Below, one piece after another: positions 1-19,668 of a stretch of 20,000 bases of DNA (its first letter is position 1; every line of letters begins with the position of its first letter). The translations under genes were made by a program, and so were the position numbers. Source of the DNA: an uncultured virus (IMG/VR IMGVR_UViG_3300027828_000031) (Duplodnaviria; Heunggongvirae; Uroviricota; Caudoviricetes); the IMG/VR virus record IMGVR_UViG_3300027828_000031; one strand, written 5' to 3'. The notes beneath the pieces are model-generated. The model saw only the letters and a list, made by a program, of their open reading frames with translations, ran no database searches and was not told the DNA's origin.

Positions 1-1994
1 ACTGTCTTAGGTCCGATACCAGATATAGCTTGCATACCAAATCTAATAATATTCTTATCTGTCATAGTAAACTTGGTTGCACCTGATGATACCAATGGTG
101 ATAATAGATTAATCTGTTCATTATTTCTGGTCATATCTTTAATAACAAGCATCTGTTTCTTTGGTTTATTGCCAACAATCAATGAATTTAATTCTGCTGT
201 ATAAAAACAATCTGCATATTTAGATTTAGCTATTGCACCACGTCTCATATTTTCTGCATATTCAACAGCATGAGCGCGGTTGAATCCATATCTACCAAAC
301 GTTCTGATTTGATCCTTTGCAATTTGAATAATTGAATCTTTTTGCTGTGGAGTTAGACTCTTGGTTGTGAAATTATGTTCCCTAGCCGCATCTCCTAACC
401 ATTCTAATTCACTGTCGATTAGAGCCATATTCTTTTTACCAACTGCCTTACGTAGAATATCTGCACGCCCAAGTGAACATCCTGTCATTTGTCTAACACG
501 ATAAATAATTTGTTCTTGGAATACCATAATACCAAATGTATCTTCTAGATATTCAGCTTCCTCAGGAAAGAGATATACTACCTTATCTTTACCAGATTTA
601 CGGTCGATCAGATGCTGTACCATAGTCTTACCATCAATTTCTGCATCCAAAGGTCCTGGCCTATATAATGCATTTCCCATTATTATATTCAATTGTGATT
701 GCATACCTATTTCTGGTAATAAATCATAATCAACCATTTGTGGTATAAAGCCCATCGATTCTGCTATACTATCTGCATCATAAAGATCTTTCATTAGTTG
801 CGTAAATCCACCAGATTCGCACTGAAATATTGATTTTGTATTTCCATCTCTAAATAACTGTTTTACATCATGATCTCCTAGAGGTGTTGATTTATATGCA
901 AATTCAGGATCATACCAGTGCTGTACTAGCTTCTCTGCGTCAAAATTAACATCTACAGTTCTAAGGCCTAATGCATCCAATTTAAGGTATCCAAAATCTT
1001 CTGCACGCATCATATCAAATTGCATCGCGGTCACATATTTACCACTACTATCTTTATAATAGATTAATGGCACATTTTCGCTCAACACCTTAGGTGATAT
1101 AATAACACCAGCGGCATGGACTGATGGACTCTTCTTGAGACCATATAGTCTCTTGATAACATTTATTACTCTATCGCCATCCCACTTTGATAGGAAAGTG
1201 AATCTTACTGAACATAAAGGATTAGGATCAGTCTTGATTGCGGCAAATTTCTCCATCTGTTCATCGTTTAACATATCAATGAATTTGTCATTATCAAATA
1301 ATTGACCATATGTTTGCTTATCTGCTATAACCTCAATATCTGGATACGATATATTATGTACCGCATTTATAAAATCTTCATTGTCTAGTAATTCTTCAAG
1401 GTCACAGCCTTCACCAAATGTATCTTTGACTTCATCTATGACCACTTCTGCGACTCTGGCTGATTTTAATACGTCACTTACTACTGAATTAGCACCAAAA
1501 GTCTGAAATGTGATTATCTGGGAAACCTTATCTGCACCATTCTTCCATGCAATATAATCTACTACAATATGGCGATAGCGTTGGGATATATCAAAATCAA
1601 TGTCTGGAGGGGCTATTCGTTCTGAGTTTAAGAATCTCTCGAAAATTAGCTTATATTCAATTGGACAAAATTCATGGATACCAATGGCATAACATGCTAT
1701 AGACCCACCCACAGATCCACGGCCTGGTCCTAATGGGATTACTCCATATTCGGGCAATTCATGACCGCGCAACTCACAGAATTCCTTAACACGTTTCTCA
1801 TCTCTACAGAAGTCATGAATGTCCCATACATTTAATATATAATCTTGAAAATTGTTTTCCTCTATAATTACACGTTTTTCGACTTCATATCTCTTAACTA
1901 CTTCATCATTCTGTTGCCAATTCGGTCCGTATTTCTCAACGAATCCCTTCTCGACTATGTGCATCAGGAATCTGCCTTGTTTGTTTATTTCCAT
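1..1994 (-). CDS. dnaE: DNA polymerase III alpha (DnaE) polymerase core lacking the PHP domain; 3' end runs off the window
   Basis: Translated by hand (not in ORF track). ATG at 1994 follows GGAGG at 2007-2003. Frame is open to position 1: MEINKQGRFLMHIVEKG...GPGRGSVGGS...FERFLNSERIAPPDIDFD...HAAGVII...GYLKLDALGLR...ALYRPGP...FQEQ...ADILRKAVGKK...YGFNRAH...IRFGMQAISGIG. All three catalytic Asp are present. Confidence 0.95.
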   Translation of the reverse strand, partial: MEINKQGRFLMHIVEKGFVEKYGPNWQQNDEVVKRYEVEKRVIIEENNFQDYILNVWDIHDFCRDEKRVKEFCELRGHELPEYGVIPLGPGRGSVGGSIACYAIGIHEFCPIEYKLIFERFLNSERIAPPDIDFDISQRYRHIVVDYIAWKNGADKVSQIITFQTFGANSVVSDVLKSARVAEVVIDEVKDTFGEGCDLEELLDNEDFINAVHNISYPDIEVIADKQTYGQLFDNDKFIDMLNDEQMEKFAAIKTDPNPLCSVRFTFLSKWDGDRVINVIKRLYGLKKSPSVHAAGVIISPKVLSENVPLIYYKDSSGKYVTAMQFDMMRAEDFGYLKLDALGLRTVDVNFDAEKLVQHWYDPEFAYKSTPLGDHDVKQLFRDGNTKSIFQCESGGFTQLMKDLYDADSIAESMGFIPQMVDYDLLPEIGMQSQLNIIMGNALYRPGPLDAEIDGKTMVQHLIDRKSGKDKVVYLFPEEAEYLEDTFGIMVFQEQIIYRVRQMTGCSLGRADILRKAVGKKNMALIDSELEWLGDAAREHNFTTKSLTPQQKDSIIQIAKDQIRTFGRYGFNRAHAVEYAENMRRGAIAKSKYADCFYTAELNSLIVGNKPKKQMLVIKDMTRNNEQINLLSPLVSSGATKFTMTDKNIIRFGMQAISGIGPKT

Positions 1995-2595
1995 TCAATT
2001 GTCCTCCGAGTTTGTTAAATATATCATCAATTTTACTGCCAGTACCATCCAATGATGGTTGAATAACTATTGACAAGACATCATCCCCACCTAGCTTTTC
2101 CCATATCGGCTGTAAATGATCAGGCCTGTTGTTATACATTTTCTCCAGCACAACTGTTCGATATCTCTCATGGCTTTGTGCCTGTTTAGTACAATCTGTG
2201 CTAATAGACATATAACCCATAGTCTTTATTGCGAATTCTGAATATTTGATACGCCATTGGTCTAAATCAACCACATCATTATTCTTAACATTCATAATCT
2301 GATTAATCTTGCCACATACCTCACTATATACCTCTTTGGTTGTACACTGAATATGCAAGATCTTGTTTGTTAGGTGTTGCTTCCGTTCTCCGATCTGAAA
2401 GACATTAACGAGTAGGTCTTGTTTGATTGGAACGCCATTTCGCGCTATTGGTGTCGATGGTCGACGCGGTTCTGGTGTTTCAATGTCTGATTCAACCAAT
2501 TGATTTGTCGAGGGTTCTTCTGGTAATTTAATATCTCTAAGATTCACTGTTGGCCTCCGTTTCTTTTTGAACAAACCTGACATTATGTTCATCAT
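1936..2595 (-). CDS. hypothetical protein between the two dnaE halves
   Basis: 219-aa ORF with AAGGAG upstream; basic KKKRR patch and Pro/Glu-rich N-terminus; no recognisable motif. Confidence 0.7.
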   Translation of the reverse strand: MMNIMSGLFKKKRRPTVNLRDIKLPEEPSTNQLVESDIETPEPRRPSTPIARNGVPIKQDLLVNVFQIGERKQHLTNKILHIQCTTKEVYSEVCGKINQIMNVKNNDVVDLDQWRIKYSEFAIKTMGYMSISTDCTKQAQSHERYRTVVLEKMYNNRPDHLQPIWEKLGGDDVLSIVIQPSLDGTGSKIDDIFNKLGGQLNGNKQTRQIPDAHSREGIR

Positions 2596-2836
2596 TATTT
2601 CTCTCCTTATATGGTATTATATCATGTGTTACACCTGTATTGTCAGTAATAGTCAAATATATATCATCAATACTAAATGTTTCACTAGTATCGTCAACGA
2701 TTGCTTCGATTGATTCTCTTAAGCATTTAATATTATTGTCGTTTATTGCCTTACCCTTATATTGCTGTAGCACCGTTCTGATTTCTCCCTCTATATCTCT
2801 ATCGTCCGTTGGTGCTATGGTTATATTTAATCCCAT
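2537..2836 (-). CDS. hypothetical acidic protein between the two dnaE halves
   Basis: 99-aa ORF; GGAGGAG upstream of the ATG; overlaps the PHP gene stop. Confidence 0.65.
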   Translation of the reverse strand: MGLNITIAPTDDRDIEGEIRTVLQQYKGKAINDNNIKCLRESIEAIVDDTSETFSIDDIYLTITDNTGVTHDIIPYKERNNDEHNVRFVQKETEANSES

Positions 2837-3828
2837 TGTTCCACTCCTCCATTCTCAAACCACTCTGGCACACTGAATTTTGGTGTAAAGATTTCCTTTG
2901 ATGGTTTTAACACATTGCCATCACATCTGTTGGCTATAATCATGGTATTTTTAATATATTCATCTTTAAACGATGTTCTCAACTCATTTGCAGACAATAT
3001 ATGATATCCTTTCCCTTTAAAGCCAAATGTATTAGGGTGGTCAGTTTCCTTATTAAAATTGATTGCTAGGAGATTTGCATGTGCATCCATATCATCTTTA
3101 TATCTATAGTGCGCGTCTGTAGCCGCAATAATCGTAATACCCATTGATTCTGCTATGCCTACCTTCTGGTCGTTAACAGTATTCTCATCAGGTATGTCAT
3201 GATTATGATATTCTAATATAAAATCATCACCAAATCTAGACTGGAACCAGTTTAACATTGCCATGGTACCGCCAAAATCTTCCTTGAGTATCATTTGGTC
3301 AACTGGTCCACCAATACAGGCTCCACTCCAGATAATGTCGTCTCCATATTTGTCAATCAATTCCAAATCAATACGTGGCTCATGATAGAATCCTTCATAA
3401 TATGAGTACCACATCAATGAACATAGATTCTGGTAGCCCTTCCAATTCTTCGCCCATGCATTAAGATGATAATATGCCTCACCACGCCTCTCAAATGATT
3501 TATAATGTCTGGAATTAATCATGAGACCATTGTTCCATACCCAATCATCCTGATTATAATCTTGTTTTGGCTGTGCCGCCATATAGAATTCACATCCTAT
3601 AATATGCTTCATCCCAAATGCATAAGCCGCCAGTGCTAAATCACCATGTGCCGACATAACGCCATGATCTGTGGCAGTTATGATGCCATGTCCCCGTTCT
3701 TCTGCTATTTGAATAATATCTTCTTTAACTTTCTTGGGTTCATCATGATCCAGTGTTCTGATCATACCGTCTTTATTAGAATATTCCGTATGTAGATGCA
3801 TATCCACGAAATCAATCTTATTCTCCAT
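2827..3828 (-). CDS. dnaE: stand-alone DnaE PHP domain (N-terminal part of Pol III alpha, likely proofreading exonuclease)
   Basis: HLHTEYS-x2-DG, TDHG, GCEFY, YHL, EPRID, GACIGG, TDAHY, NT-x2-IA-x-RC and PKF-x-VP match the DnaE N-terminus; GGAGG SD upstream. Confidence 0.92.
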   Translation of the reverse strand: MENKIDFVDMHLHTEYSNKDGMIRTLDHDEPKKVKEDIIQIAEERGHGIITATDHGVMSAHGDLALAAYAFGMKHIIGCEFYMAAQPKQDYNQDDWVWNNGLMINSRHYKSFERRGEAYYHLNAWAKNWKGYQNLCSLMWYSYYEGFYHEPRIDLELIDKYGDDIIWSGACIGGPVDQMILKEDFGGTMAMLNWFQSRFGDDFILEYHNHDIPDENTVNDQKVGIAESMGITIIAATDAHYRYKDDMDAHANLLAINFNKETDHPNTFGFKGKGYHILSANELRTSFKDEYIKNTMIIANRCDGNVLKPSKEIFTPKFSVPEWFENGGVEQWD

Positions 3829-4543
3829 ATATTACATCCTCCCAATCTGGCACCGTGTTGTCGATATGGTCATATAACCTTGCTTTCAGTTTCTTCGTGA
3901 GTTGTATTATCCTTTGCTTAGAAATGTCAAGTTCTCTGGCAGTAGTAGTCTGAGCTTTGCCTTCAATAATAGATTTTAGAATATATTCATCTCTTTCACT
4001 TAAATCCATATTATTTACCGCCAGCTTCACTGCTAATAGTACACCCTCAATATGTTTGTCACGCTCATTGTTAATTATTTCTTCTTCTGCTGTAGGATAT
4101 GCTGATTGGTTGTTTACATTTGGATGCCTTCTTGTATATGTTTCGAATGTCTCTTCATTAGACATGTCATCATATTCCTTCATTAATTGGTATCTCTTAT
4201 TATCTTTAACTTTACTTTGATAAATATATCTGACTCTACTGTCCAAGTGTGATTGAATGAAATTATTATATGTGGCTTGTCCATCAATCTCATATTTAAA
4301 TTTAGTATAATGCCACATCCAATATCTAATGTCTGCTAGTATATCATTCCAGCCAATAATCACTGTGCCGTTGTTATACTTAATAGACCATTTCTTGCAG
4401 ATCGTCAATAATAGTGGCTTAAATATATCGAGGAGGAAGGTCATTCCCTCCTCCTCCAAGACAGCATCTCCAGACTGAACCTTGACTACCGCATCATTAA
4501 TATTATCAATTTTTTCGCATTCGCCTCGTTTCAGTCTAGTCAT
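3818..4543 (-). CDS. phage sigma70-family RNA polymerase sigma factor-like protein
   Basis: Region-2-like segment (LLDIFKPLLLTICKKW...ATYNNFIQSHL) and region-4 HTH (LSERDEYIL...TTARELDISKQRIIQL). ATG at 4543 directly after the dut stop is preferred over GTG at 4570. Confidence 0.75.
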   Translation of the reverse strand: MTRLKRGECEKIDNINDAVVKVQSGDAVLEEEGMTFLLDIFKPLLLTICKKWSIKYNNGTVIIGWNDILADIRYWMWHYTKFKYEIDGQATYNNFIQSHLDSRVRYIYQSKVKDNKRYQLMKEYDDMSNEETFETYTRRHPNVNNQSAYPTAEEEIINNERDKHIEGVLLAVKLAVNNMDLSERDEYILKSIIEGKAQTTTARELDISKQRIIQLTKKLKARLYDHIDNTVPDWEDVIYGE

Positions 4544-4544
4544 A

Positions 4545-5063
4545 TTAGTTACCCGTACTTCCGAAGCCACTGCAATTTCGCTGTGTAATGCCTAAATTAT
4601 CATGGCAATTAACTTCTATTATATTTGGTGTACACTTTTTATGAATTACTAATTGTACTAATCTATCACCATGTTTTATCATAATCTTTTTATCACTTAA
4701 ATTTGCAATACAAGCAATCAATTCACCTGTATATCCTTCATCGATTATTGAATCACCAGATATCATTAATTTCTGATTGGTTGATGATCTACATTCTAAT
4801 CTACCATAATAGCCCATAGGCATCCTAACAAATATACCAGTTGGAATGTTGACCATTTGTTTCTTTGGTAACCAGAAGTACGGCATTGTGTCCATACTTG
4901 GTGAAGGCATGATCCCTAATGCAAAACCATCTGCTTGATGGATTCCAATATGCTCTTGTACTATAGATGGCAGATCATAGCCCACATCACCTTGTTTCTT
5001 GACATGTATTAAATCAAATTCTCTAGCCTCTTCCGTTCTGAACACCTTCAAATCTTGCATCAT
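4545..5063 (-). CDS. dut: trimeric dUTPase-family protein
   Basis: Motifs I GDVGYDL, II RSS, III IDEGYTGE, IV GDRLVQLVI, V R-x3-GFGSTG. Confidence 0.9.
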   Translation of the reverse strand: MMQDLKVFRTEEAREFDLIHVKKQGDVGYDLPSIVQEHIGIHQADGFALGIMPSPSMDTMPYFWLPKKQMVNIPTGIFVRMPMGYYGRLECRSSTNQKLMISGDSIIDEGYTGELIACIANLSDKKIMIKHGDRLVQLVIHKKCTPNIIEVNCHDNLGITQRNCSGFGSTGN

Positions 5064-7001
5064 CTATTCCTCCTCATGCCAATCTTTACAGACTCTTAAT
5101 TCTGCATCATAATTTCGTCTAGTTGGGTTCCAACATTCTTCAAATGAATAATACCCTATCACTCGATTCATTGCTGTTTTAATTGGTGCTCCACAATCAG
5201 GGCATTCTCTAGACTGTCCGATTATGTTTGTGTGTCCATTTATACATTTACCTGTTCTAAAACAGATCCCAACATGATTAACACCAGATTGAGCACACAA
5301 TTTAAATAGTTGATACATCATTTTTGCTGAATGCAGTCTATCTTCAAAGTTCAAATGAACAATACCACCACCTGAAATTATGCTCATGAATCTACCTGCG
5401 ATATCAATTCTATCGAAGATATCAACATCAGCAATTAATGGAACATATTGATTACTATAAAGATTGGTTGCTATGTCATATCCAAATGTTCTATCTTTCT
5501 TAACTAGTGTAACACAAGTTTGTTCACCTGGAATTTCTTCAATGTTATAAGCCCAACCATCTTCTTTGCGATATTCCTTTGTCTTTTCACGCATGAATGA
5601 GAATATATCTTGAGCAATCTCGGTGCCGTTATCATCTATGATATCATATCCAAGATATTCTACCATTTCCTTAGCACCCGTAATACCAAATGTTGAGAAC
5701 ATCGTATCCAATGAGAACCAGCCCGTACCGCCGCCTTCACGATCTCCGAAGAACTTGAGATATTTAGGTGTACGATCAATTCTCTTTTGTAAGACATCTA
5801 TTCTATGAATCTTTAATAATCTTCGTGCTGTATCCATTCTGTGTGTTAATAGCTCTTCTATAGACCCCTGACCTGCATTTGAGTCTAATGCTAATCTAGG
5901 TAGATTGATTGTTACTACTCTATGAGATCCAATATTAACCCCGCCATTTCCAAAGCTATCTGGTGACATATCCATATCATCTAGATCATTCTCATATCTA
6001 CAACACATTGCCAACTTGGATTTCTTGCCAAAATGGATATTGAAATTACCCAAATTCATATTGGTTTCTGCCGCCCACTGTGCGAACTCTTCATCGATGA
6101 ATTCTTTCTTATCGCCGATCGTGATGTTCATTGTTACTACTGGAAATCTGTATGGGAATCCAGTAATTGGATCACCATTTTTGAACCACTCACAGAATAT
6201 CTTCTGTAATTCCATGATATAGTCTATATCTGGCTTGCTACCATCAGGATAGAATACGTGACCAAATAGGCTATTTAGGCCAGATTCATCATAAATACCG
6301 AGATTGACGAATGGAGATTCTCCTTCAGATCTTGATGCGTCATTGAAAAGGACAACCAATGATTGATAATCTTGGATGATTTCTTTCCTATGGGCTGGAT
6401 TTCTAGGGTCGAGGTTCTCTTTTTGACAGAAATGTGCATACCACATGAAGAAGTCTGATGGTGCTGTTGCTCCTGCAAATTGTCTTGACATATCTCCAAT
6501 GAGCTTGTCGACCTGTGAGATAAATGATCGTCTGTGCTTCGCTGGTGTATTAATTGATGGTCCATAAGGTCTCCCTTCCACTACCATGCTTGTTAAACTG
6601 AATGCATAGCAATACGGTAGTTGTAATTTCTTGCCGTGTGCGTCATGGAAGTATAATTCTCCGTCCCAAATCGCCGCAATGTCTCTGTTTGCTTGGTCAA
6701 TACCATATCTCTTCACACCATAATACCATAATGTATGATATCCCAATAACTTCATAGGTCCATTCATAAGATGTGCAGAGTATGTTGTTGGATCTTGTAT
6801 TTCTGTAATATTGCTGTTCTGATCTTGATAGACATCTGATAGTCTATTTTGAAAAAATTCTTTACTTGAATTACCGATATCTAATTGATTGGGTGCAATC
6901 CCTGTTAATTTTAGTAGATCTAATCCTTTACTACTTTGTGTATATGAATCATATAATAATTTAAATTCTCTCTCTACAGTAATACCAGCTATTCTTGACA
7001 T
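5064..7001 (-). CDS. nrdD: anaerobic (class III) ribonucleoside-triphosphate reductase
   Basis: LYFHD, PYC, MCCR finger loop, TINLPRLA, Zn ribbon C-x3-H...CPDCG, glycyl-radical loop RVIGY. Start reassigned to ATG 7001 (AAAGGAG upstream); the 7160 start overlaps nrdG. Confidence 0.93.
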   Translation of the reverse strand: MSRIAGITVEREFKLLYDSYTQSSKGLDLLKLTGIAPNQLDIGNSSKEFFQNRLSDVYQDQNSNITEIQDPTTYSAHLMNGPMKLLGYHTLWYYGVKRYGIDQANRDIAAIWDGELYFHDAHGKKLQLPYCYAFSLTSMVVEGRPYGPSINTPAKHRRSFISQVDKLIGDMSRQFAGATAPSDFFMWYAHFCQKENLDPRNPAHRKEIIQDYQSLVVLFNDASRSEGESPFVNLGIYDESGLNSLFGHVFYPDGSKPDIDYIMELQKIFCEWFKNGDPITGFPYRFPVVTMNITIGDKKEFIDEEFAQWAAETNMNLGNFNIHFGKKSKLAMCCRYENDLDDMDMSPDSFGNGGVNIGSHRVVTINLPRLALDSNAGQGSIEELLTHRMDTARRLLKIHRIDVLQKRIDRTPKYLKFFGDREGGGTGWFSLDTMFSTFGITGAKEMVEYLGYDIIDDNGTEIAQDIFSFMREKTKEYRKEDGWAYNIEEIPGEQTCVTLVKKDRTFGYDIATNLYSNQYVPLIADVDIFDRIDIAGRFMSIISGGGIVHLNFEDRLHSAKMMYQLFKLCAQSGVNHVGICFRTGKCINGHTNIIGQSRECPDCGAPIKTAMNRVIGYYSFEECWNPTRRNYDAELRVCKDWHEEE

Positions 7002-7011
7002 ATTTTCTCCT

Positions 7012-7482
7012 TTAATAACGGATCTCATATAGTCCACCGTCACGACCTCTCCTCTTAAAGGCCTTTTGGTTTTCTGATGATGGAAATCCGTCTCTTTTTT
7101 GATTGTGTCTATACATACCATATTTAATAAAATCACATATATTTTCAAGATTTGTTCCAATTGATATACGTGTATATCCAGTATATAATGCTATGTTTCT
7201 TTTATAGATATTTCTGAGTTCTGATGCTAGCAGAAATAGATCAGCATATGATTGGTCAAGTGGTTCTCCGCCTAGAAATACTATCCAATCATTATCGGCA
7301 ATATTTACAGTCTTTACAATATCATCTATTGACATCTCAATGCCATCAAATGATTGTAGTTCTGGATTTTGGCAATCTTTACATCCAATATTGCATCCCT
7401 GAAACCATATTGTAGTTACTGCTTCATCCGTGAATGGTTTACCGTTAGTTATATCGAATTTATCTATTCTCGCTATCTTCAT
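7012..7482 (-). CDS. nrdG: anaerobic RNR activating enzyme (radical SAM)
   Basis: FQGCNIGCKDCQNPE (CxxxCxxC), LGGEPL, LYTGY, SSENQ; adjacent to nrdD. Confidence 0.93.
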   Translation of the reverse strand: MKIARIDKFDITNGKPFTDEAVTTIWFQGCNIGCKDCQNPELQSFDGIEMSIDDIVKTVNIADNDWIVFLGGEPLDQSYADLFLLASELRNIYKRNIALYTGYTRISIGTNLENICDFIKYGMYRHNQKRDGFPSSENQKAFKRRGRDGGLYEIRY

Positions 7483-13343: not shown

Positions 13344-13600
13344 TACTTTTCCTCCTTATAACATTTATTACATATATGTTGTTTTAGTTTAGTATGATAG
13401 CATTTAGTTGGTTGATCGCATATATAACATGGATAAAATAATCTCTGTTGCATAATCACACTACCATCAAAACCCTTGCAATATCCAGATTTACGTAATG
13501 TGAACCCAAGCTGGCACTTCAAATCTGGCCTATGGTGCCTCATAATCTGTAATGCATTTGTACATCTAGCACACTTAGAACACCATATCATATCATACAT
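13343..13600 (-). CDS. small Cys-rich putative zinc-binding protein
   Basis: CxxCxxC...C...C plus CxxC...CxxC; GGAGG SD; TAATG coupling on both sides. Confidence 0.65.
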   Translation of the reverse strand: MYDMIWCSKCARCTNALQIMRHHRPDLKCQLGFTLRKSGYCKGFDGSVIMQQRLFYPCYICDQPTKCYHTKLKQHICNKCYKEEK

Positions 13601-15060
13601 TATTTTACCTCCTCAAATTTGAACTCGGGTTCCGTCTTCCAAATCTTAATCTTATTATTGATATGTTTATTAATAAATGGTGCATTGTCTCTGAACGTTG
13701 AAAATATCGCCTCTGTCTTGTCATCATGCAGTCTCATAATACGACCAATCCTTTGCAATGCTGTTGTCGACGATTTTCCAGCACCAGCTTCAACCACTGC
13801 CTCAAGTCTAGGTACATCCAATCCAACATCCGCTATTGACGATGCAATAACCAATGGTGCTTTACCATCTCTCATATCTTGGATTGTTTGCTCACGATGT
13901 TTCTTCCCTGATTTACCAGATATCATAAGTGCATCTATACCAAATGCTTTAAACATCTTCTGCAGAATTTCTCCATGTTTTATTTGAGTAATCAGCACCA
14001 ATGTATTTAGACCATTTGCATGATGTCTTAATGCTTCATTAACAACCTGCATATTTCTAGAATTGTTTTCAACAATTGCTGATTTATAAACTTGAGCATA
14101 TGTTCTACCACTCCATATATTGTCTATTACATCTATGATTTTAATTGTTGGTTGCATAAGCCATCCATCCCTAATTAAATCGGATGCAGTATTAAAAACT
14201 ATGATCTCACCAAATGCGGCCCTGATCATCATTGATCCTCCATCATCGCGCCAAGGACTAGCACTCAAGCCATATGCTCTACTTGCATTTTTAAACATTT
14301 GACGTGCGCCAAATGCTGTAGAACTACCAACACGCTGTGTTTCATCAAACAATACTAATCCAACTGTATGTGACCAATTGAGTATGTCTTTTTTATGTTG
14401 TTTAATATCCATTTTATCTTCATATCCATGACCTTCTTCATCAAAGGCATATTTCTCATAGAATGACTTAGATAAGCACTGCGATAGAGTTTGTACAGTA
14501 GCAACAGTGATATCTTGTAGATTAACAATGCCACCGCCAATCTGTCCAATTTCAATCCCAAATGCGGCATGCAGTGTATCCATTACCTGCTTAAGTAAAT
14601 CTAATGTATGAACTATAACTACGGCTCTACAGCCAATAGATTCTATAATACCAGCCATCATTACGGTCTTGCCCGAGCCAGTAGCAGATTGAATTATTCC
14701 ACTTTTAGCAAATGTTGCCTTAATAATTGTTTCATTTTGATAGTCTCTAAATTGGAAGTTACATCTAGGATAAGATACTGGAGTACCATTTGAATATTGA
14801 AATACATACTCGTATTTATACTCATATCTAGTCAATAAACCAGATACTATATCCAATATGCCAGTTGGGAATGATTTTGTGTTAATATTAAATAGATGCT
14901 TACGACCATCCCATTTACCACATTTGCCACCCTTCTTCATAAAATGTTGTCCTTGAATCTCATATGAACATACTTCTTGAATTTTACTTAATGTGGCAGG
15001 GTCTATATGGCCTTCAATTATACAAACTGTATTACTTACATTAATCTTGACTAATTGCAT
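13600..15060 (-). CDS. superfamily 2 DNA helicase (UvsW/XPB-like)
   Basis: Q motif FRDYQ, Walker A ATGSGKT, TVQT, DETQ, SASP, GLDVP, QRIGRIMR. Confidence 0.9.
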   Translation of the reverse strand: MQLVKINVSNTVCIIEGHIDPATLSKIQEVCSYEIQGQHFMKKGGKCGKWDGRKHLFNINTKSFPTGILDIVSGLLTRYEYKYEYVFQYSNGTPVSYPRCNFQFRDYQNETIIKATFAKSGIIQSATGSGKTVMMAGIIESIGCRAVVIVHTLDLLKQVMDTLHAAFGIEIGQIGGGIVNLQDITVATVQTLSQCLSKSFYEKYAFDEEGHGYEDKMDIKQHKKDILNWSHTVGLVLFDETQRVGSSTAFGARQMFKNASRAYGLSASPWRDDGGSMMIRAAFGEIIVFNTASDLIRDGWLMQPTIKIIDVIDNIWSGRTYAQVYKSAIVENNSRNMQVVNEALRHHANGLNTLVLITQIKHGEILQKMFKAFGIDALMISGKSGKKHREQTIQDMRDGKAPLVIASSIADVGLDVPRLEAVVEAGAGKSSTTALQRIGRIMRLHDDKTEAIFSTFRDNAPFINKHINNKIKIWKTEPEFKFEEVK

Positions 15061-15670
15061 TCTCTTTCACTTCCTTCCATCTATCCTTATTGATACTATG
15101 GATAGCGGTAGTGAATTGCTTAAGTGTCATAATGACATAAACTTTGCCTTTGAATTTAAAATAGACACAACATTTTGGTTGCTTATAAAAATTCTTGATG
15201 TTTAGTCTATCAGCCATTTCGATTTCTGAAATATAAAGGTTCTTTATCTTGTTATTCATCTGGATTTCTAACATCAATGGCAGTGTTGCGTCTGCATGGA
15301 TCATCTTGAGCATAGTTGTATTATTAATCATAACAAATCCAAATGGTACCTTTGGTCTAGAGAATGCAAAGAACCATTCTGCTCCATAGATTTCACATTC
15401 ATCTTCAATTTGTTCTATATCTTCGATTGGTATTTTGTGTCTAGGTTTAAGCTCTGATGGAACAATTCTCTTTTTTGCCTCACCTAGCCAATTACAGGGA
15501 CCAGTGCCCTCATTGTCTCTAATATCTCCCCATCCAAACCTTGAATTTGAACCGGAATATGGTACTACATACATATTAAGGGACTTAGCTATCTTCTTTT
15601 CGAAAGCCTTGCCCCTCTTGCGATTATTGGCATTTTTCCGTGCCAATGGACTCTTTTTCTTCTTTGCCAT
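15041..15670 (-). CDS. PD-(D/E)xK nuclease, Hjc-like Holliday junction resolvase
   Basis: RGKAFEKKIA...SGS...GDI...EAK catalytic pattern; located between SSB and helicase. Confidence 0.7.
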   Translation of the reverse strand: MAKKKKSPLARKNANNRKRGKAFEKKIAKSLNMYVVPYSGSNSRFGWGDIRDNEGTGPCNWLGEAKKRIVPSELKPRHKIPIEDIEQIEDECEIYGAEWFFAFSRPKVPFGFVMINNTTMLKMIHADATLPLMLEIQMNNKIKNLYISEIEMADRLNIKNFYKQPKCCVYFKFKGKVYVIMTLKQFTTAIHSINKDRWKEVKENAISQD

Positions 15671-15677
15671 TTTATTG

Positions 15678-15711
15678 CCTCCTAGATAAGGAGGGTGCCA
15701 CTAGGGCACCC
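15678..15711 (-). promoter_or_regulatory. double hairpin after ssb: GC-rich stem-loop (possible weak terminator) plus anti-SD hairpin
   Basis: GGGTGCC-CTAGT-GGCACCC (15711-15693) and CCTCCT-TATCT-AGGAGG (15694-15678); the second covers the resolvase SD. Confidence 0.55.
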
Positions 15712-15717
15712 ATTAGA

Positions 15718-16923
15718 TTATTCAATACCTAAGAATGTTGTTAGATGTTGTAACTGCTCATCTGTCATAGCATAGATATTAGTTACACCATTACATTCTC
15801 TTGCTAGTAGATCGATTACTGCTTGATATCCTTTGCCTGATACCTCAGGATGTGATTGAATTGACACGTTTATCTTTTGAATCACTTGGTTCTTATCAAA
15901 CGCCGTATCCGGTTGTCCAACCTGTGTTTGTGGTTGAGCCGTAGCCGCTGGTGCTGTCTGCTGTGGCTGTGTTGGCGGTGTTTGAGTTGCTACAGTACCA
16001 GTTGGTTGTGGTGTAATTGGTTGACTAGGAACTGTTGCTGTTGGCGCTTGCTGTACTGGAGTTCCTTGTTGCGGGTTATTGAAATTTGGTACTCCATCAA
16101 TCATAACACCACGTAGATTTACCATAATAATTTGTGCACACGCTTTAGTTTCATTTTGACGTTTAGATGTTGACAGCCAATCTATAAAACTAGGATCTTG
16201 TGCATTAATTTGTTCAAGTGTTGCACCTTTATGCTTAGTATTTGGCATTACATGTGCTAATGCTTCTTTTAGAGATTTTGGATATTCTAGTTCTAGAGGT
16301 TTAATGAATTCTTCCCAATTCAATCCAACTTCTAATACTTTAGCTTGCATTGTTTCTACAGTGTCTGGTGCATAAACTTCTGCTAAAATAGGCAATTGTG
16401 GTTGTAGTGAGTCATAACCTGGATAAACATCAGTAGGTTGTGGCATCGCTGATGATCCAATGTATTCCGTACTGAACATATCACCCTTAGTACCTGTCTT
16501 GGTTGCTATAAAATTCATTGCTTCAATATTCTGTTTCGCTTTTGCAAGTGGTGACAGTGATTTAAATAGATCTGTACCTGATTTTAAAATTCGAACTGAT
16601 TGTGTAGAATAATCCCAAACTGGCATTGCCATACGTAATCTGCTTGCATGTTTGCCACCTGTTTTACAAACTGGACAATTTTCCATGCCTGGGCAGATTA
16701 TTTCTCTATAAAATGCACCGCCATTAGGGTCATTTTTGCGTGCTTCATTTTGTATTGGATGACTATAGAACCCATGAGGCTGTTCTCCTAAATCCGTTCT
16801 AAGTAATGGTCGTACAATTTTTGGTTCATTGTACTCAAGTTTGATCTCTTGACCAGAACCCCCACCACCGTTTGACATCTTACCAGTACCATCAATTACA
16901 TCCCAAGTATTAATTCCTGACAT
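15718..16923 (-). CDS. ssb: single-stranded DNA-binding protein (gp32-like OB fold with Zn site) with extra C-terminal domains
   Basis: H...CPGMENCPVC Zn site, VWDY...VRILK..TDLF, TKTGT..STEY pattern typical of gp32-like phage SSBs; replication context. Confidence 0.65.
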   Translation of the reverse strand: MSGINTWDVIDGTGKMSNGGGGSGQEIKLEYNEPKIVRPLLRTDLGEQPHGFYSHPIQNEARKNDPNGGAFYREIICPGMENCPVCKTGGKHASRLRMAMPVWDYSTQSVRILKSGTDLFKSLSPLAKAKQNIEAMNFIATKTGTKGDMFSTEYIGSSAMPQPTDVYPGYDSLQPQLPILAEVYAPDTVETMQAKVLEVGLNWEEFIKPLELEYPKSLKEALAHVMPNTKHKGATLEQINAQDPSFIDWLSTSKRQNETKACAQIIMVNLRGVMIDGVPNFNNPQQGTPVQQAPTATVPSQPITPQPTGTVATQTPPTQPQQTAPAATAQPQTQVGQPDTAFDKNQVIQKINVSIQSHPEVSGKGYQAVIDLLARECNGVTNIYAMTDEQLQHLTTFLGIE

Positions 16924-17169: not shown

Positions 17170-17214
17170 TAATCTTCCTCCTTACAGTTTGATCCTGCAA
17201 CGTACTTATACGCT

Positions 17215-17245: not shown

Positions 17246-17260
17246 GCTGTTATTTCTAAC

Positions 17261-18313
17261 TTATGCTAGTTGGTTCTTCCATTTAACGTATATGTTTATG
17301 TGACCAGATAATTCGCTTGGCTTAACTCTGATCTCATTAACTCCCGCTCCGACACTTTTGAAGATATCTTTATGTTTGTTAGCAATATATTTGTTTGATA
17401 CACATGCCACATAAAGTCTAAATCCATCCTCTAAAATTTCTAATGGATCGAAAAATTTTGGATCTGTACATTCATTATCAATATAAGATTCTTGGATGTT
17501 GTATTTACCAGTATTTTCACCAATACACTTATATCTGATAATGCCAGTAGCCATGAATTCAAAATCAACAACTTCCATATACATCTTATGGTCTATACTA
17601 AAGAAGATATGCCCATTCTGATATTTAACTTCGACTTGATCTAAATATTCCTGTACCAGACCTTTGTGCACTAACATTGGCTGTCGAGAATCACTATAGA
17701 CTAGAATATGTGTGCCCTCATCTTTGATGAATTCATATCTACTGCCTTTGGACAATGGCCCAAATCCCTTATGCATTGTCACATATTCTAGACCATCATT
17801 GGTAATATTTGCCATTGCATCAATTTCAACTTGATTACCTGATCTATGTGACATTCTTTGATTGACATCAGCTTTGAGCTTACTGTACATTTCTGCGGTC
17901 TTTTTTGATGGACCACAATCTCTACCACGTCCTAATAATTGGATTAGATAACTTACATCCAACAATAATTGCTCACCAAGGTCATATTGCATAATCTGCG
18001 CTAATAATCCCTTTGAAGCTTTGTACATACCTTCTCGTTGTTTACTAGTAAATACCAGATTTGTCTCTATGTTCATCTTATTGTCCTCCTGATTTTTATT
18101 TGTGGTTTCAGCATAATATTCATCCTCTGTTATGCAGTCATGTGATTCTAGATTATCACTATGTTCGCAACCATTGCTAGTCTCAGTCCAAGCACTACCA
18201 CTACCTCTATGGTGCCCAAGCCAGTCTATACCATCTTCATAACAATGTCTGAATTCATATTTGTGTCCACAATGTGGACATCTGGCATATTTCCATTCAC
18301 CACGTGTCTCCAT
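17261..18313 (-). CDS. hypothetical protein with N-terminal CxxC zinc-ribbon-like segment; probable second in-frame start at 18076
   Basis: CPHCG near the N-terminus; internal AGGAGG (18090-18085) precedes in-frame ATG (Met80). Confidence 0.7.
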   Translation of the reverse strand: METRGEWKYARCPHCGHKYEFRHCYEDGIDWLGHHRGSGSAWTETSNGCEHSDNLESHDCITEDEYYAETTNKNQEDNKMNIETNLVFTSKQREGMYKASKGLLAQIMQYDLGEQLLLDVSYLIQLLGRGRDCGPSKKTAEMYSKLKADVNQRMSHRSGNQVEIDAMANITNDGLEYVTMHKGFGPLSKGSRYEFIKDEGTHILVYSDSRQPMLVHKGLVQEYLDQVEVKYQNGHIFFSIDHKMYMEVVDFEFMATGIIRYKCIGENTGKYNIQESYIDNECTDPKFFDPLEILEDGFRLYVACVSNKYIANKHKDIFKSVGAGVNEIRVKPSELSGHINIYVKWKNQLA

Positions 18314-18495
18314 TATTGTCCTCCTAATTTTATTTTTACAAATTTATCTTTTACTGGCTTGAATGCTTCCTTTAGATCTTCTTCAAATTCGGTCATAATT
18401 TCTCTGCCTTTAATATCATTAGCTGAATGATATAACTTACATCTACATTCTTCACCATCGCAGATTCCCGTCATACCCCAAACACAATCATTCAT
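18313..18495 (-). CDS. small Cys-rich hypothetical protein
   Basis: 60 aa with four Cys in the first 20 residues; TAATG coupling to the next gene. Confidence 0.6.
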   Translation of the reverse strand: MNDCVWGMTGICDGEECRCKLYHSANDIKGREIMTEFEEDLKEAFKPVKDKFVKIKLGGQ

Positions 18496-18507
18496 ATTAT
18501 TGTCCTT

Positions 18508-19668
18508 CTAAATCATAGCTTTCTCGTCCGTCACTATCATATCTTGTCTTTCTGCTCCAGTACCAAGTCCTATCACAGGACAACCTGTAATATTTGTCAC
18601 TGTTTTCATGAACTGAGCAGTTTTGCCTGTGATTTCTTCTACTCTACCGAGCATCTTCCAATCAATATATTGGGCGAAGTTGATGAATATACCAGTTGGT
18701 CGGTTGAGCTTGGCTACATAATCCAGTCTGTTCCAATTCATTTCAAATACTCTGCGAGTCTTCTTAGTTACTGTTGTTTGCTCACCAAACTCCACTTCAT
18801 CAGGTGCACCACACTCTGCCTTAACTTGATCCCAGCTTATTTCATTGGAACCATCATAATCGCCTGAGTACCGTTCATCACCGAGATTGGTCGAGCTACT
18901 AATTCTGATTGGATAAGGTCGCATTACCATATAAACTTCAATATTTGGGTATGTTGGTGATATGCCACAATCAGCCAATAATTGACCTGCATGGCATTGT
19001 CTAGATGTAGTATGTGGGTAATTCAACCCATAGTTAATATCTAGGTCTGTACCTTGACTGCCCTCAATGATCACATCTGTGCCAATATCTAATGATGCGT
19101 TGATATGATCCATATAATCCTGTATTACTACATTTTCTAGGAGTGCACGACCCTGATCCACTGTAATCCCGAGATATCCATGCTCTGGATACTCTCTATA
19201 TAGGTGAAGCTCTTCCATAAGGTCCCAGAATAACATTGCCTGTCTCATAGCTTTATCTGCTAATGCCGCACCACATCCTTTGAATGTAGATCCTGATTTC
19301 AATTTCTTCTTCTCGTACTCACAATGATGATTGAGTATTACTGCCGCTCTAGGGTGTACATATACCTTGCGGTCACCCAAGATATCTTTGTACTTGATAA
19401 TCTCATCTGCTAAAATTGACGGAGTAATTGCTGATCCAGGCCCAATTATTAGAGTTGCATTTAGATTGAGAATTGATGTCGGCAAATGCTGTACCATTGT
19501 AGCCTCACCATTCACTACCGTAGTATGTCCTGCATTTGACATGAAATTATTGATTGCTATGAATGGACGATCATATTGCGATGCGAACCAATCTACTACC
19601 TTACCTTTCCCACATGAGCCAGCTTGACTATCGAGAACTATTCTTACTGTACCTAATTTTGAAATCAT
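18508..19668 (-). CDS. purZ: PurZ-like N6-succino-2-amino-2'-deoxyadenylate synthase (adenylosuccinate synthetase fold)
   Basis: DSQAGSCGKGK (Ser18 where PurA has the catalytic Asp of GDEGKGK), NAGHT, GSTFKGCGAA, EGSQG, YPHTTSR, RPYPIRI, TTVTKKTRRV, NFAQY in place of the PurA TKLD guanine-binding motif. Confidence 0.82.
   Translation of the reverse strand: MISKLGTVRIVLDSQAGSCGKGKVVDWFASQYDRPFIAINNFMSNAGHTTVVNGEATMVQHLPTSILNLNATLIIGPGSAITPSILADEIIKYKDILGDRKVYVHPRAAVILNHHCEYEKKKLKSGSTFKGCGAALADKAMRQAMLFWDLMEELHLYREYPEHGYLGITVDQGRALLENVVIQDYMDHINASLDIGTDVIIEGSQGTDLDINYGLNYPHTTSRQCHAGQLLADCGISPTYPNIEVYMVMRPYPIRISSSTNLGDERYSGDYDGSNEISWDQVKAECGAPDEVEFGEQTTVTKKTRRVFEMNWNRLDYVAKLNRPTGIFINFAQYIDWKMLGRVEEITGKTAQFMKTVTNITGCPVIGLGTGAERQDMIVTDEKAMI

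What the first reader, a model, noticed from the sequence alone, without database searches (positions are those of the whole stretch)
1..19668. Putative Z-DNA system built on a family-C (DnaE) replisome
Seen: purZ is in one co-oriented block with a complete replisome (split DnaE, DnaG-DnaB, SSB, DnaD-like, SF2 helicase), dNTP supply enzymes (NrdDG, NMP kinase, dUTPase) and an adenine MTase. No family-A polymerase, PrimPol, HD-family DatZ or MazZ/DUF550 gene is recognisable in these 20 kb. Established: characterised Z phages use family-A DpoZ or PrimPol plus dATP-depleting DatZ. Inference: this may be a different Z architecture in which DnaE incorporates dZTP, with adenine exclusion done by genes outside the window, by repurposed neighbours, or only partially.
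Basis: inference. Interest (0 to 1): 0.85.

Follow-up and report, generated by a model that had tools for sequence, protein, structure and literature searches.

The report
PurZ phage with DnaE replisome
A roughly 67-kb phage, probably of anaerobic Firmicutes, carries the key gene for replacing adenine with 2-aminoadenine inside a bacterial-style (DnaE) replication module, an arrangement not described for such phages, but whether its DNA is really modified is untested.

Summary
All window genes lie on the minus strand. A PurZ-type adenylosuccinate-synthetase homologue (18508-19668) sits in one block with a split DnaE, a DnaG-DnaB fusion, an SF2 helicase, NrdDG, two nucleotide kinases and a dUTPase.

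Joining two overlapping viral records gave the whole ~67-kb genome. It holds no family-A polymerase, PrimPol, DatZ, MazZ/DUF550, DUF5664 or NDT. The same is true of 8 related IMG/VR records, where DnaE and Dut are present in 6 of 6 that are at least 90% complete.

The dUTPase groups, with moderate support, with DutZ, a dATP/dGTP pyrophosphohydrolase published in 2026. That is a concrete candidate for adenine exclusion.

The cultured Bacillus phage vB_BpsS-140 shares the module. Its published restriction pattern matches that of dZ-DNA.

Against this, the nearest relatives of the phage family's PurZ are chromosomal genes of small gut Firmicutes genomes. They are often fused or adjacent to NUDIX, and most of those genomes lack PurA and PurB.

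I put about 50% on Z-DNA here. It would be a new variant of a known kind.

The parts
18508..19668 (-). PurZ-type (2-amino)adenylosuccinate synthetase homologue, 386 aa
   Evidence: PF00709 3.3e-39; phrog_1211 3.1e-63. Ser replaces PurA Asp13 (motif GSCGKG). phiVC8 positions T262, P233, Y244, W252, F295 and Y298 are kept; F12 is Ala. ATP-type pocket N305/F306/Q308 in S-2L numbering.
19670..19999 (-). C-terminal part of a 246-aa thymidylate-kinase-like kinase. ThyX lies just beyond the window.
   Evidence: The full ORF was read in the overlapping record G002. phrog_761 1.3e-15; the next gene is Thy1 at 8.1e-42.
4545..5063 (-). Trimeric dUTPase homologue, the candidate DutZ (dATP/dGTP pyrophosphohydrolase)
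   Evidence: PF00692 5.5e-18. Motifs II-V are seen in the alignment to solved dUTPases and motif I in the MAFFT alignment. It groups with Wayne, Archimedes and SBlackberry DutZ against 14 other phage Duts, 86/79.
7479..8006 (-). Adenylate-kinase-family NMP kinase, 175 aa. Inferred role: dZMP/dNMP phosphorylation.
   Evidence: PF00406 9.7e-15; solved adenylate kinases at 4e-10. Conserved next to Dut in vB_BpsS-140 and present in relatives.
5064..7482 (-). NrdD and NrdG, the anaerobic ribonucleotide reductase and its activase
   Evidence: PF13597 4.4e-80; PF13353 2.7e-14.
2827..3828 (-). PHP domain of DnaE as a separate 333-aa protein. Predicted to be the proofreading exonuclease.
   Evidence: PF02811 1.5e-27. 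In the printed alignment to Taq and M. tuberculosis DnaE1, the nine positions I recall as the PHP metal ligands are all kept.
1936..2836 (-). Two ORFs (219 and 99 aa) between the PHP and polymerase genes, forming a variable insert
   Evidence: No Pfam or PHROG hit. No homologue in three relatives, which carry 0.6-1.4 kb of other sequence at this place.
3..1994 (-). DnaE (family C) polymerase core, the N-terminal 664 of 990 aa
   Evidence: PF07733 1.3e-53, PF17657 1.4e-30; HHH_6 in the full protein. The PDIDxD and LKxD catalytic aspartates are aligned to Taq Pol III alpha.
3818..4570 (-). 250-aa HTH protein at the position of the sigma-70-like gene of vB_BpsS-140
   Evidence: Weak KorA HTH at 8.4e-4. 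The vB_BpsS-140 gene at this position has Sigma70_r4; blastp found no similarity between the two. The gene is conserved in three IMG/VR relatives.
8089..10764 (-). DnaG primase fused to DnaB helicase, 891 aa
   Evidence: PF03796 1.7e-37, PF01807 5.9e-15, Toprim. 30% identical to the vB_BpsS-140 fusion.
11961..13028 (-). D12-class N6-adenine methyltransferase. An accessory gene, not part of the conserved module.
   Evidence: PF02086 5e-19. Absent from 8 of 8 related records.
13600..15060 (-). UvsW-like SF2 helicase
   Evidence: PF00271, PF04851 and UvsW_N. 36% identical to the vB_BpsS-140 helicase.
15041..16923 (-). RusA-like resolvase (209 aa) and a 401-aa SSB-like protein
   Evidence: phrog_244 2.6e-05; phrog_14578 2.7e-07. 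Both have vB_BpsS-140 counterparts.
17261..18313 (-). 350-aa protein of unknown function next to purZ
   Evidence: No Pfam or PHROG hit. ESM Atlas gave no usable lead.

Best explanation
The window is the replication and nucleotide-metabolism module of a ~67-kb myovirus, probably of anaerobic Firmicutes. It likely replaces some or all adenine in its DNA by 2-aminoadenine (Z) without any of the classical helper genes.

Proposed route:
1. NrdDG makes dNTPs.
2. The Dut-like enzyme hydrolyses dGTP to dGMP and dATP to dAMP. This is the inferred DutZ activity.
3. PurZ condenses dGMP with aspartate, using ATP or dATP.
4. A PurB-type lyase, not encoded by this phage, gives dZMP.
5. The Adk-like kinase and host Ndk give dZTP.
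6. ThyX and the Tmk-like kinase, next to purZ, raise dTTP, the pairing partner.
7. The phage's own two-piece DnaE copies the genome from the altered pool: the polymerase core plus a separate PHP exonuclease with all nine metal-ligand positions kept. It works with the DnaG-DnaB fusion and the UvsW-like helicase.

Shown here: gene content, residue signatures, absence of the classical genes, and conservation of the module. Inferred: every enzyme activity and the presence of Z.
For: PurZ signature:
- Ser replaces the PurA catalytic Asp, and T262, P233, Y244, W252, F295 and Y298 (phiVC8 numbering) are kept in the window protein and in 15 of 15 sampled family members.
- The ATP-type pocket N/F/Q is present.
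- These positions are the ones reported as PurZ-specific in passages of 10.1101/2025.10.22.683976 and PMC8342488.

No classical helper genes:
- Six-frame searches of G001+G002 gave PolA 0/2, HD 0/2, MazG 0/2 and DUF550 0/2. Positive controls rang in 2 of 3 known Z phages each.
- tblastn with 9 Z-system proteins gave nothing below E=1.8.

Conservation:
- In 8 related IMG/VR records: DnaE 7/8, Dut 7/8 (both 6/6 among those at least 90% complete), PolA 0/8, HD 0/8, MazG 0/8, DUF550 0/8, NDT 0/8.
- The order Adk-NrdG-NrdD-Dut-sigma-PHP-insert-DnaE is kept in two of three complete relatives; the third lacks an Adk hit in the stretch fetched.
- The module is collinear with Bacillus phage vB_BpsS-140, with 13 shared proteins.

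Dut: the Duts of PurZ-bearing phages form one side of a branch, 12 against 14 rows, 86/79.

Cultured relative, vB_BpsS-140:
- DraI, PstI, HindIII and BamHI do not cut its DNA, KpnI cuts poorly and EcoRI cuts completely (PMC6483233 supplementary table 3).
- Its genome holds 21, 4, 6, 3, 4 and 24 sites for these enzymes.
- On dZ-PCR DNA, DraI, PstI, HindIII and BamHI are 'R' and EcoRI is 'PR' (PMC12944874 supplement).

Other support:
- E. coli incorporated Z into its chromosome (3.9%) when given the S-2L Z-cluster (PMC8342488 passages). Recalled: that chromosome is copied by a DnaE-type Pol III, so a family-C polymerase can use dZTP.
- A 186-aa adenylosuccinate-lyase fragment lies beside DnaE in 2 of 10 family records.
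Against: - No direct measure of base composition exists for this phage or any relative.
- The phage family's PurZ nests within a clade (SH-aLRT 98) otherwise made of chromosomal genes of gut Firmicutes. These carry the same signature residues and are of unknown function. The signature is therefore not proof of a Z-genome role.
- The phage encodes no PurB. Of 20 bacterial genomes carrying the related gene, only 4 have any PurB-family lyase. If the hosts are of that kind, the pathway would stall.
- The DutZ grouping is only moderately supported, and no bacterial Duts were in the tree.
- F12 is Ala, and positions 256 and 273 differ from phiVC8 PurZ.
- This phage carries a Dam-like methyltransferase, and GATC is not avoided: 319 observed against 226 expected.
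- PstI and BamHI failed on most phages in the vB_BpsS-140 study, so only the DraI result is specific, and perhaps HindIII, whose result on the other phages I did not see.
Confidence: 0.5

Rival explanations
1. The PurZ-like gene was captured from the host lineage and does in the phage what it does in the cell. There it partners a dNTP pyrophosphohydrolase in a nucleotide conversion that has nothing to do with genomic Z, such as clearing or converting a non-canonical or surplus (d)NMP. The phage DNA is ordinary A-DNA replicated by DnaE, and Dut is an ordinary dUTPase.
For: - There are 70 loci in species-representative bacterial genomes at 33-55% identity. None has any of 15 other proteins of this phage within 10 kb (NrdD gave 2 weak hits).
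- Neighbours in 3 of the 5 annotated loci are housekeeping genes: TyrRS, FtsY, IleRS, RecA, YmdB, Gpr, PBP.
- The phage family nests among three bacterial subclades.
- NUDIX is fused in 13 of 65 loci, and fused or adjacent in 37 of 65.
- 15 of the 16 genomes where it is the only PF00709 homologue lack a PurB-type lyase.
Against: - The residues shared with characterised PurZ, including the ATP pocket, argue for a guanine-nucleotide substrate.
- The phages swapped NUDIX (0 of 5 relatives) for a Dut that groups with DutZ.
- The same module in vB_BpsS-140 goes with DNA that resists the enzymes blocked by dZ.
Confidence: 0.3
2. The gene is a plain PurA-type auxiliary metabolic gene that boosts AMP/dATP supply from IMP during infection.
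For: - The best solved match by sequence is the short archaeal PurA of Pyrococcus, 6e-33.
- In 16 of 20 bacterial genomes the related gene is the only adenylosuccinate-synthetase homologue.
Against: - The catalytic Asp is replaced by Ser in every member examined.
- The GTP-specificity residues of PurA are replaced by the ATP-type N/F/Q.
- Most of those bacteria lack PurB, so the gene cannot be part of an IMP-to-AMP route there.
- 3 genomes also keep a canonical PurA, and a fourth has a divergent 161-bit homologue.
Confidence: 0.1
3. Z incorporation depends on a still unrecognised phage polymerase or dATPase among the many unknown ORFs, and DnaE is not the incorporating enzyme.
For: About half of the ORFs upstream of purZ have no family assignment. 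The 350-aa neighbour of purZ is unassigned.
Against: DnaE is catalytically intact, has its own PHP exonuclease, and is conserved in every near-complete relative. No second polymerase fold was found by Pfam, PHROGs or tblastn.
Confidence: 0.05

Closest known systems
PurZ0 / DutZ phages (Arthrobacter phage Wayne, Gordonia phage Ghobes; PMC12884076)
   Same: There is no DatZ or MazZ. A Dut-like enzyme lies near the synthetase, and the window's Dut groups with theirs.
   Different: Their synthetase is the PurZ0 type (M/Q at phiVC8 295/298); here it is the PurZ type (F/Y). They carry a family-A DpoZ-1 and usually an NDT-type DmtZ; here there is DnaE, no PolA and no NDT.
Cyanophage S-2L (PurZ, MazZ, DatZ, PrimPol)
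   Same: It is the precedent for a polymerase that need not prefer Z, with adenine exclusion left to pool editing (PMC8342488 passages). The PurZ has the same ATP-type pocket.
   Different: S-2L has an HD-type DatZ and a MazG-type MazZ and a PrimPol. None of these is present here.
phiVC8 / SH-Ab 15497 type (PurZ, DatZ, DUF550, DpoZ)
   Same: PurZ residues S14, T262, F295 and Y298.
   Different: Only about 30-33% identity. The replisome there is family A, with DatZ and DUF550 present.
Bacillus phage vB_BpsS-140 (MH884512.1), cultured, DSM 29700
   Same: The same collinear module: nuclease, PurZ, 401-aa protein, RusA-like, helicase, DnaG-DnaB, Adk, Dut, PHP, DnaE. No PolA, HD or MazG among the 42 ORFs scanned.
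   Different: It is a siphovirus with unrelated structural genes. PurZ is 39% identical, with VGSE instead of AGSC. Its PHP and polymerase ORFs overlap with no insert. It has RecA and a weak NDT-like ORF, and no NrdDG. Its authors did not link it to Z-DNA (passages of PMC6375668 and PMC6483233).
Phage-encoded DnaE replisomes of Firmicutes phages
   Same: A family-C polymerase with PHP, finger and HhH domains, alongside a DnaG-DnaB type primase-helicase.
   Different: No paper in the searched library links such a replisome with purZ.

Membership tests
PurZ (2-aminoadenylosuccinate synthetase) | Adenylosuccinate-synthetase fold | tested here: met
   PF00709 3.3e-39. Solved PurA and PurZ chains matched at 6e-33 to 4e-25.
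PurZ (2-aminoadenylosuccinate synthetase) | Ser in place of the catalytic Asp13 of PurA | tested here: met
   GSCGKG in the window protein and in 15 of 15 sampled relatives.
PurZ (2-aminoadenylosuccinate synthetase) | [quoted passage not shown] | tested here: inconclusive
   S14 and T262 are kept. F12 is Ala in the whole family.
PurZ (2-aminoadenylosuccinate synthetase) | ATP-type rather than GTP-type donor pocket (phiVC8 F295/Y298; S-2L N305/F306/Q308) | tested here: met
   F/Y and N/F/Q are present. Salmonella PurA has K/V and T/K/D at these positions.
PurZ (2-aminoadenylosuccinate synthetase) | Groups with characterised PurZ to the exclusion of PurA and PurZ0 | tested here: inconclusive
   SH-aLRT 92-97 for a clade with classical PurZ and vB_BpsS-140. 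The tree has a single PurA outgroup and no archaeal sequences.
PurZ (2-aminoadenylosuccinate synthetase) | dGMP + Asp + ATP activity | not testable with these tools
   This needs an enzyme assay.
DutZ (Dut-like dATP/dGTP pyrophosphohydrolase) | Trimeric dUTPase fold with catalytic motifs | tested here: met
   PF00692 5.5e-18. The motifs RSS, IDxGYxGE, GDRxxQ and RxxxGFGSTG are aligned to solved dUTPases. The motif names are recalled.
DutZ (Dut-like dATP/dGTP pyrophosphohydrolase) | Member of the monophyletic DutZ group | tested here: inconclusive
   One side of a branch at 93/91 (13 rows) and 86/79 (26 rows). The comparators were phage Duts only.
DutZ (Dut-like dATP/dGTP pyrophosphohydrolase) | Hydrolysis of dATP and dGTP | not testable with these tools
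   This needs an enzyme assay.
DpoZ (family-A Z-selective polymerase) | DNA_pol_A domain in the genome | tested here: not met
   PF00476: 0/2 records of this genome and 0/8 relatives. Wayne DpoZ by tblastn gave nothing below E=8.7.
DatZ (HD dATP triphosphohydrolase) | HD-domain protein | tested here: not met
   PF01966: 0/2 and 0/8. The control found DatZ in 2 of 3 Z phages. tblastn with S-2L and phiVC8 DatZ gave nothing below E=1.8.
MazZ / DUF550 | MazG-like or DUF550 pyrophosphohydrolase | tested here: not met
   PF03819: 0/2 and 0/8. PF04447: 0/2 and 0/8, with the control ringing in 2 of 3.
DnaE (family-C replicative polymerase) | Pol III alpha core, fingers, HhH, and catalytic aspartates | tested here: met
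   PF07733, PF17657 and PF14579. PDIDFD and LKLD are aligned to Taq Pol III alpha.
DnaE (family-C replicative polymerase) | PHP domain with the nine metal ligands of active PHP exonucleases | tested here: met
   H, H, D, H, E, H, C, D and H all align to the M. tuberculosis DnaE1 and Taq positions. Which residues are the ligands is recalled.
Z-genome (dZ-DNA) phage | 2-aminoadenine in virion DNA | not testable with these tools
   Only indirect evidence exists: the published restriction pattern of the relative vB_BpsS-140.

The most novel reading that the evidence does not exclude
A large, uncultured phage lineage, probably of anaerobic Firmicutes, writes Z-DNA with a family-C (DnaE plus stand-alone PHP) replisome and a Dut-type pool editor. 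It took its PurZ from an unrecognised cellular NUDIX-PurZ pathway in small, PurA/PurB-less gut Firmicutes. If so, some bacteria themselves make 2-aminoadenine-type nucleotides.
Probability: 0.15. Interest if true: 0.92.

Novelty: new variant of a known kind. Interest (0 to 1): 0.72.

Why it matters
Every Z-genome phage described in the papers I could search uses a family-A DpoZ or a PrimPol.

A Z system built on DnaE would show that the main bacterial replicase family can sustain a ZTGC genome when the pool is edited. It would offer a processive replisome with its own PHP proofreader for synthetic ZTGC work. It would also extend Z-DNA to an abundant uncultured phage group, probably of anaerobic Firmicutes.

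A cultured relative, vB_BpsS-140 (DSM 29700), makes the question directly testable.

The cellular NUDIX-PurZ-like genes bear on where PurZ came from.

Tried and rejected
- The window's own assembly is not held. I worked from the nearest viral record, G001, and the overlapping G002.
- Pfam, PHROGs and the ESM Atlas gave nothing for the 350-aa neighbour of purZ, nor for the two ORFs inside the DnaE split.
- The 168-aa phrog_1238 protein matched only one hypothetical solved protein, 2obb. I did not pursue it.
- ADSL_C (PF10397) as a PurB probe gave 0 of 20, even in genomes with a canonical PurA. I treated it as uninformative and replaced it with Lyase_1.
- The Dam-like methyltransferase was considered as part of the system and rejected, because it is absent from 8 of 8 relatives.
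- An NDT/DmtZ route was considered: 0/8 relatives and no hit in this genome. Only vB_BpsS-140 has a weak NDT-like ORF, below the Pfam cut-offs.
- Literature searches found no paper linking the terms:
  - PurZ+DnaE: 1 unrelated paper.
  - PurZ+'polymerase III': 38 papers, of which the 20 listed were unrelated.
  - PurZ+DatZ+'Pol III': 1 review, seen only in the listing.
  - DnaE/PolC with Z terms: none held DnaE.
  - PurZ+Nudix: 2 unrelated papers.
- The earlier-findings index held nothing.
- I did not use structure prediction, complex prediction or read mapping, because none would tell Z from A.

Full report
WHAT IS IN THE WINDOW

All long ORFs are on the minus strand. GC is 34-39%, with negative GC skew throughout.

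Pfam and PHROGs give the following genes, listed here in the order of transcription:
- The C-terminal part of a Tmk-like kinase (19670-19999).
- A PurZ-type adenylosuccinate-synthetase homologue (18508-19668).
- Small and unknown ORFs, including a 350-aa protein (17261-18313).
- A 401-aa SSB-like protein and a RusA-like resolvase.
- A UvsW-like SF2 helicase (13600-15060).
- A D12 adenine methyltransferase (11961-13028).
- A DnaG-DnaB fusion (8089-10764).
- An adenylate-kinase-family kinase (7479-8006).
- NrdG and NrdD.
- A dUTPase homologue (4545-5063).
- An HTH/sigma-like protein.
- A stand-alone PHP gene (2827-3828).
- Two unassigned ORFs.
- The DnaE polymerase core (1994-3, running off the window).

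The 'SSB' and 'DnaD-like' calls are weak, and no clamp, clamp loader or epsilon subunit was seen.

THE WHOLE GENOME

The window's own assembly is not held. The viral record G001 (47,498 bp) contains window bases 1-19107 exactly.

Left of the window, G001 holds the rest of DnaE (990 aa in all), then HIRAN, a 168-aa protein, RNase H and an ATP-dependent ligase. Beyond those come a lysis cassette (Amidase_2, BhlA holin, Cu_amine_oxidN1) and myovirus structural genes up to the terminase. NrdDG and the lysis genes point to an anaerobic Firmicutes host. That is an inference.

A second record, G002 (35,881 bp), overlaps both ends. G002 1-5629 equals the last 5.6 kb of the window at 97.9% identity. 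G002 24492-35881 equals G001 1-11390 at 100%. The genome is thus about 67.25 kb. The exact-sequence look-up reports a 68,269-bp contig for this very protein.

The 18.9 kb not covered by G001 or the window holds ThyX and the rest of the Tmk-like kinase directly upstream of purZ. It also holds an alpha/beta hydrolase, a 3D-domain protein, a 582-aa PD-(D/E)XK nuclease, zinc-ribbon proteins and many unknown ORFs.

ABSENCE OF THE CLASSICAL Z GENES

Six-frame profile searches of G001+G002 found no DNA_pol_A, HD, MazG or DUF550.

As positive controls, the HD model found DatZ in S-2L and phiVC8 but not in SH-Ab 15497. The DUF550 model found S-2L MazZ and the SH-Ab protein but nothing in phiVC8. The models work, but they are not fully sensitive.

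I therefore also ran tblastn against the joined genome with nine proteins:
- S-2L DatZ and phiVC8 DatZ
- S-2L MazZ
- SH-Ab DUF5664-DUF550
- Wayne DUF5664
- the two DmtZ proteins (Wayne and Archimedes)
- Wayne DpoZ
- the Wayne PrimPol-helicase

The best E-value was 1.8.

IS IT A PurZ?

The protein has GSCGKG where PurA has GDEGKG.

Against phiVC8 PurZ numbering it keeps S14, T262 (in the motif TTVTK), P233, Y244, W252, I34, F295 and Y298. It differs at F12 (Ala), G256 (Lys) and S273 (Glu). The same pattern holds in 15 of 15 sampled family members.

Against S-2L numbering it has the adenine-binding N305/F306/Q308, where Salmonella PurA has T/K/D.

These positions are the ones named in passages of 10.1101/2025.10.22.683976 and PMC8342488.

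In a tree rooted on one PurA, the family groups with vB_BpsS-140 and classical PurZ, apart from PurZ0 (SH-aLRT 97, 92).

A CANDIDATE FOR ADENINE EXCLUSION

PMC12884076 reports that Dut-like 'DutZ' enzymes of PurZ0 phages hydrolyse dATP and dGTP to the monophosphates. They thereby replace DatZ and MazZ, and all 98 PurZ0 genomes in that study have one. I read part 1 of the Results and sections 24-26.

The window's Dut keeps the dUTPase motifs. Its best phage matches are the vB_BpsS-140 Dut (2e-25) and Duts of PurZ0-bearing Microbacterium phages (1e-20). Most other phage Duts score 1e-9 or weaker. One Bacillus phage reaches 7e-11, and Wayne-type DutZ only 1e-11 to 1e-12.

In trees, the Duts of PurZ-bearing phages form one side of a branch. 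Support is 93/91 with 13 rows and 86/79 with 26 rows, 12 against 14. This is suggestive, not proof. No bacterial Duts were included.

CONSERVATION AND SURVEY

The PurZ family is large. 1045 proteins scored E<=1e-10, and the 119 listed after the window's own cluster are 54-61% identical, many on 55-69 kb contigs.

In IMG/VR, 8 further records carry it. Among them:

| Feature | Records with it |
|---|---|
| DnaE | 7/8 (6/6 of those at least 90% complete) |
| Dut | 7/8 (6/6 of those at least 90% complete) |
| PolA | 0/8 |
| HD | 0/8 |
| MazG | 0/8 |
| DUF550 | 0/8 |
| NDT | 0/8 |
| D12 methyltransferase | 0/8 |
| NUDIX | 0/5 tested |

The one record lacking DnaE and Dut is a 71% fragment.

In all three complete relatives NrdG-NrdD-Dut-sigma-like-PHP-gap-DnaE-HIRAN is kept, and Adk precedes it in two of them. 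PHP and the polymerase core are always separate genes, with 0.6-1.4 kb of unrelated sequence between them.

The PHP protein keeps all nine positions that I recall as metal ligands of active PHP exonucleases. The core keeps its catalytic aspartates.

THE CULTURED RELATIVE

Bacillus phage vB_BpsS-140 (MH884512.1) has the best phage-database PurZ match, at 39%. It has a collinear module of 13 shared proteins, including a split DnaE of 363 + 852 aa. None of the 42 non-structural ORFs I scanned is a PolA, HD or MazG protein. The structural genes were not scanned.

Its describers noted Pol III alpha genes (PMC6375668 passages). They also noted that DraI cut every phage genome except this one (PMC6483233 passages).

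| Enzyme | Cutting of vB_BpsS-140 DNA | Sites in the genome | On dZ-PCR DNA (PMC12944874 supplement) |
|---|---|---|---|
| DraI | non-cutter | 21 | R |
| PstI | non-cutter | 4 | R |
| HindIII | non-cutter | 6 | R |
| BamHI | non-cutter | 3 | R |
| KpnI | poor cutter | 4 | no result given |
| EcoRI | complete cutter | 24 | PR |

The match is striking. However, PstI and BamHI failed on most phages in that study, so DraI, and perhaps HindIII, carry the weight.

PLAUSIBILITY OF DnaE

S-2L shows that a non-selective polymerase suffices when dATP is removed (PMC8342488 passages). E. coli expressing the S-2L Z-cluster put Z into 3.9% of chromosomal adenine positions. That the chromosome is copied by DnaE-type Pol III is textbook knowledge.

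THE COMPLICATION

A scan of species-representative bacterial genomes with the family alignment returned 70 loci. Nearly all are gut or rumen Clostridia, Bacilli and 'Tenericutes' MAGs of 0.8-2.1 Mb, at 33-55% identity.

- None has any of 15 other proteins of this phage within 10 kb; NrdD gave 2 weak hits.
- I annotated 5 loci. In 3 the neighbours are housekeeping genes: TyrRS, FtsY, IleRS; YmdB, RecA; Gpr, PBP. One locus also has recombinase genes nearby. One has an HD-CYTH protein and an NT5C-like gene.
- Of the 65 full ORFs I extracted, 64 show A-G-S-C, and the TVTK and F295 positions are largely kept. Five loci with partial matches were left out.
- Thirteen are about 510-542 aa long. The one scanned (L079) has an N-terminal NUDIX domain. 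In 37 of 65 loci a NUDIX homologue lies in the locus, mostly fused or directly adjacent.
- Among 20 of these genomes, a canonical PurA is present in only 3, plus one divergent homologue. Any PurB-family lyase is present in only 4. So 15 of the 16 genomes in which this gene is the only homologue show no PurB. MAG completeness was not reported.
- In a 50-row tree, the phage family (support 99) nests in a clade (support 98) with three bacterial subclades.

The gene's nearest kin are therefore cellular and are not ordinary PurA. They appear coupled to a dNTP/NTP pyrophosphohydrolase, much as PurZ is coupled to MazZ or DutZ. Their role is unknown, and I found no paper on them.

This cuts both ways. 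The constant pairing with a pyrophosphohydrolase, NUDIX in cells and Dut in phages, fits a (d)NMP substrate such as dGMP. But it also means the residue signature does not by itself prove a Z genome. It also raises the question of where the phage would find a PurB. This phage encodes none. Two of 10 family records carry a 186-aa adenylosuccinate-lyase fragment beside DnaE.

VERDICT

The architecture is PurZ-type synthetase + Dut (DutZ-like) + Adk/Tmk kinases + ThyX + a split DnaE with its own PHP, with no DpoZ, PrimPol, DatZ or MazZ. It is real, conserved and widespread. I did not find it described in the papers I could search. Zhou 2021 and Tong 2023 are not in the library, and the preprint's supplements are closed.

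I put about 0.5 on genomic Z, complete or partial. I put 0.3 on a non-Z role inherited from the cellular clade, 0.1 on a plain PurA function, and 0.05 on a hidden polymerase or dATPase.

Noticed in passing
L054-L123 (genome-contig loci), e.g. L079:9533-11107, L081:9986-11570, L069:9977-11068: A cellular clade of PurZ-signature synthetases (A-G-S-C motif, ATP-type pocket) lies in 70 species-representative gut or rumen Firmicutes genomes. NUDIX is fused in 13 of 65 and fused or adjacent in 37 of 65. Housekeeping genes flank it in 3 of the 5 loci annotated. Most of the 20 genomes checked lack canonical PurA (16) and any PurB-type lyase (16). Its function is unknown, and the searched library holds no paper on it.
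   Followed up: partly
L053:1614-1901 (-) = G009:C1:32113-32400; the same in G008: A 186-aa ORF between DnaE and HIRAN in two related phage records is a fragment of adenylosuccinate lyase (1e-24 to solved ADSL, covering residues ~70-165 only). It may be a remnant of a phage purB.
   Followed up: partly
window 1936-2836 (-): The two ORFs between the PHP and DnaE-core genes (219 and 99 aa) have no family hit and no homologue in three relatives, which hold 0.6-1.4 kb of different sequence there. In vB_BpsS-140 the two DnaE ORFs overlap. The split is old and the filling is variable, possibly mobile.
   Followed up: partly
window 11961-13028 (-): The D12 (Dam-like) adenine methyltransferase is peculiar to this phage (0 of 8 relatives). 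GATC is over-represented rather than avoided in the joined genome, 319 against 226 expected. If the DNA holds Z, the enzyme would have to act on Z or on host DNA.
   Followed up: partly
L008:5299-6727 (-) and window 18508-19999: ThyX, a Tmk-like kinase and PurZ are contiguous and co-oriented. The supply of both partners of the Z:T pair would then be encoded side by side.
   Followed up: no
L005:12546-13022 (-), vB_BpsS-140: A 158-aa ORF has weak nucleoside-2-deoxyribosyltransferase similarity (7.6e-05, below the Pfam cut-off). It is a possible DmtZ-like gene in the cultured relative. The window's phage has no counterpart.
   Followed up: no
G002 1-5629 versus window 14372-20000; G002 24492-35881 versus G001 1-11390: The bridging record is 100% identical to G001 at one end but only 97.9% identical at the other. 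It is a strain variant or a mosaic assembly, so the joined genome is a composite.
   Followed up: no
L003:6388-6894 (-), left of the window: A 168-aa protein between RNase H and HIRAN matches phrog_1238 ('phosphoheptose isomerase', 5.5e-16) and one solved hypothetical protein (2obb, 2.6e-4). Its role is unknown, and vB_BpsS-140 has no counterpart.
   Followed up: partly
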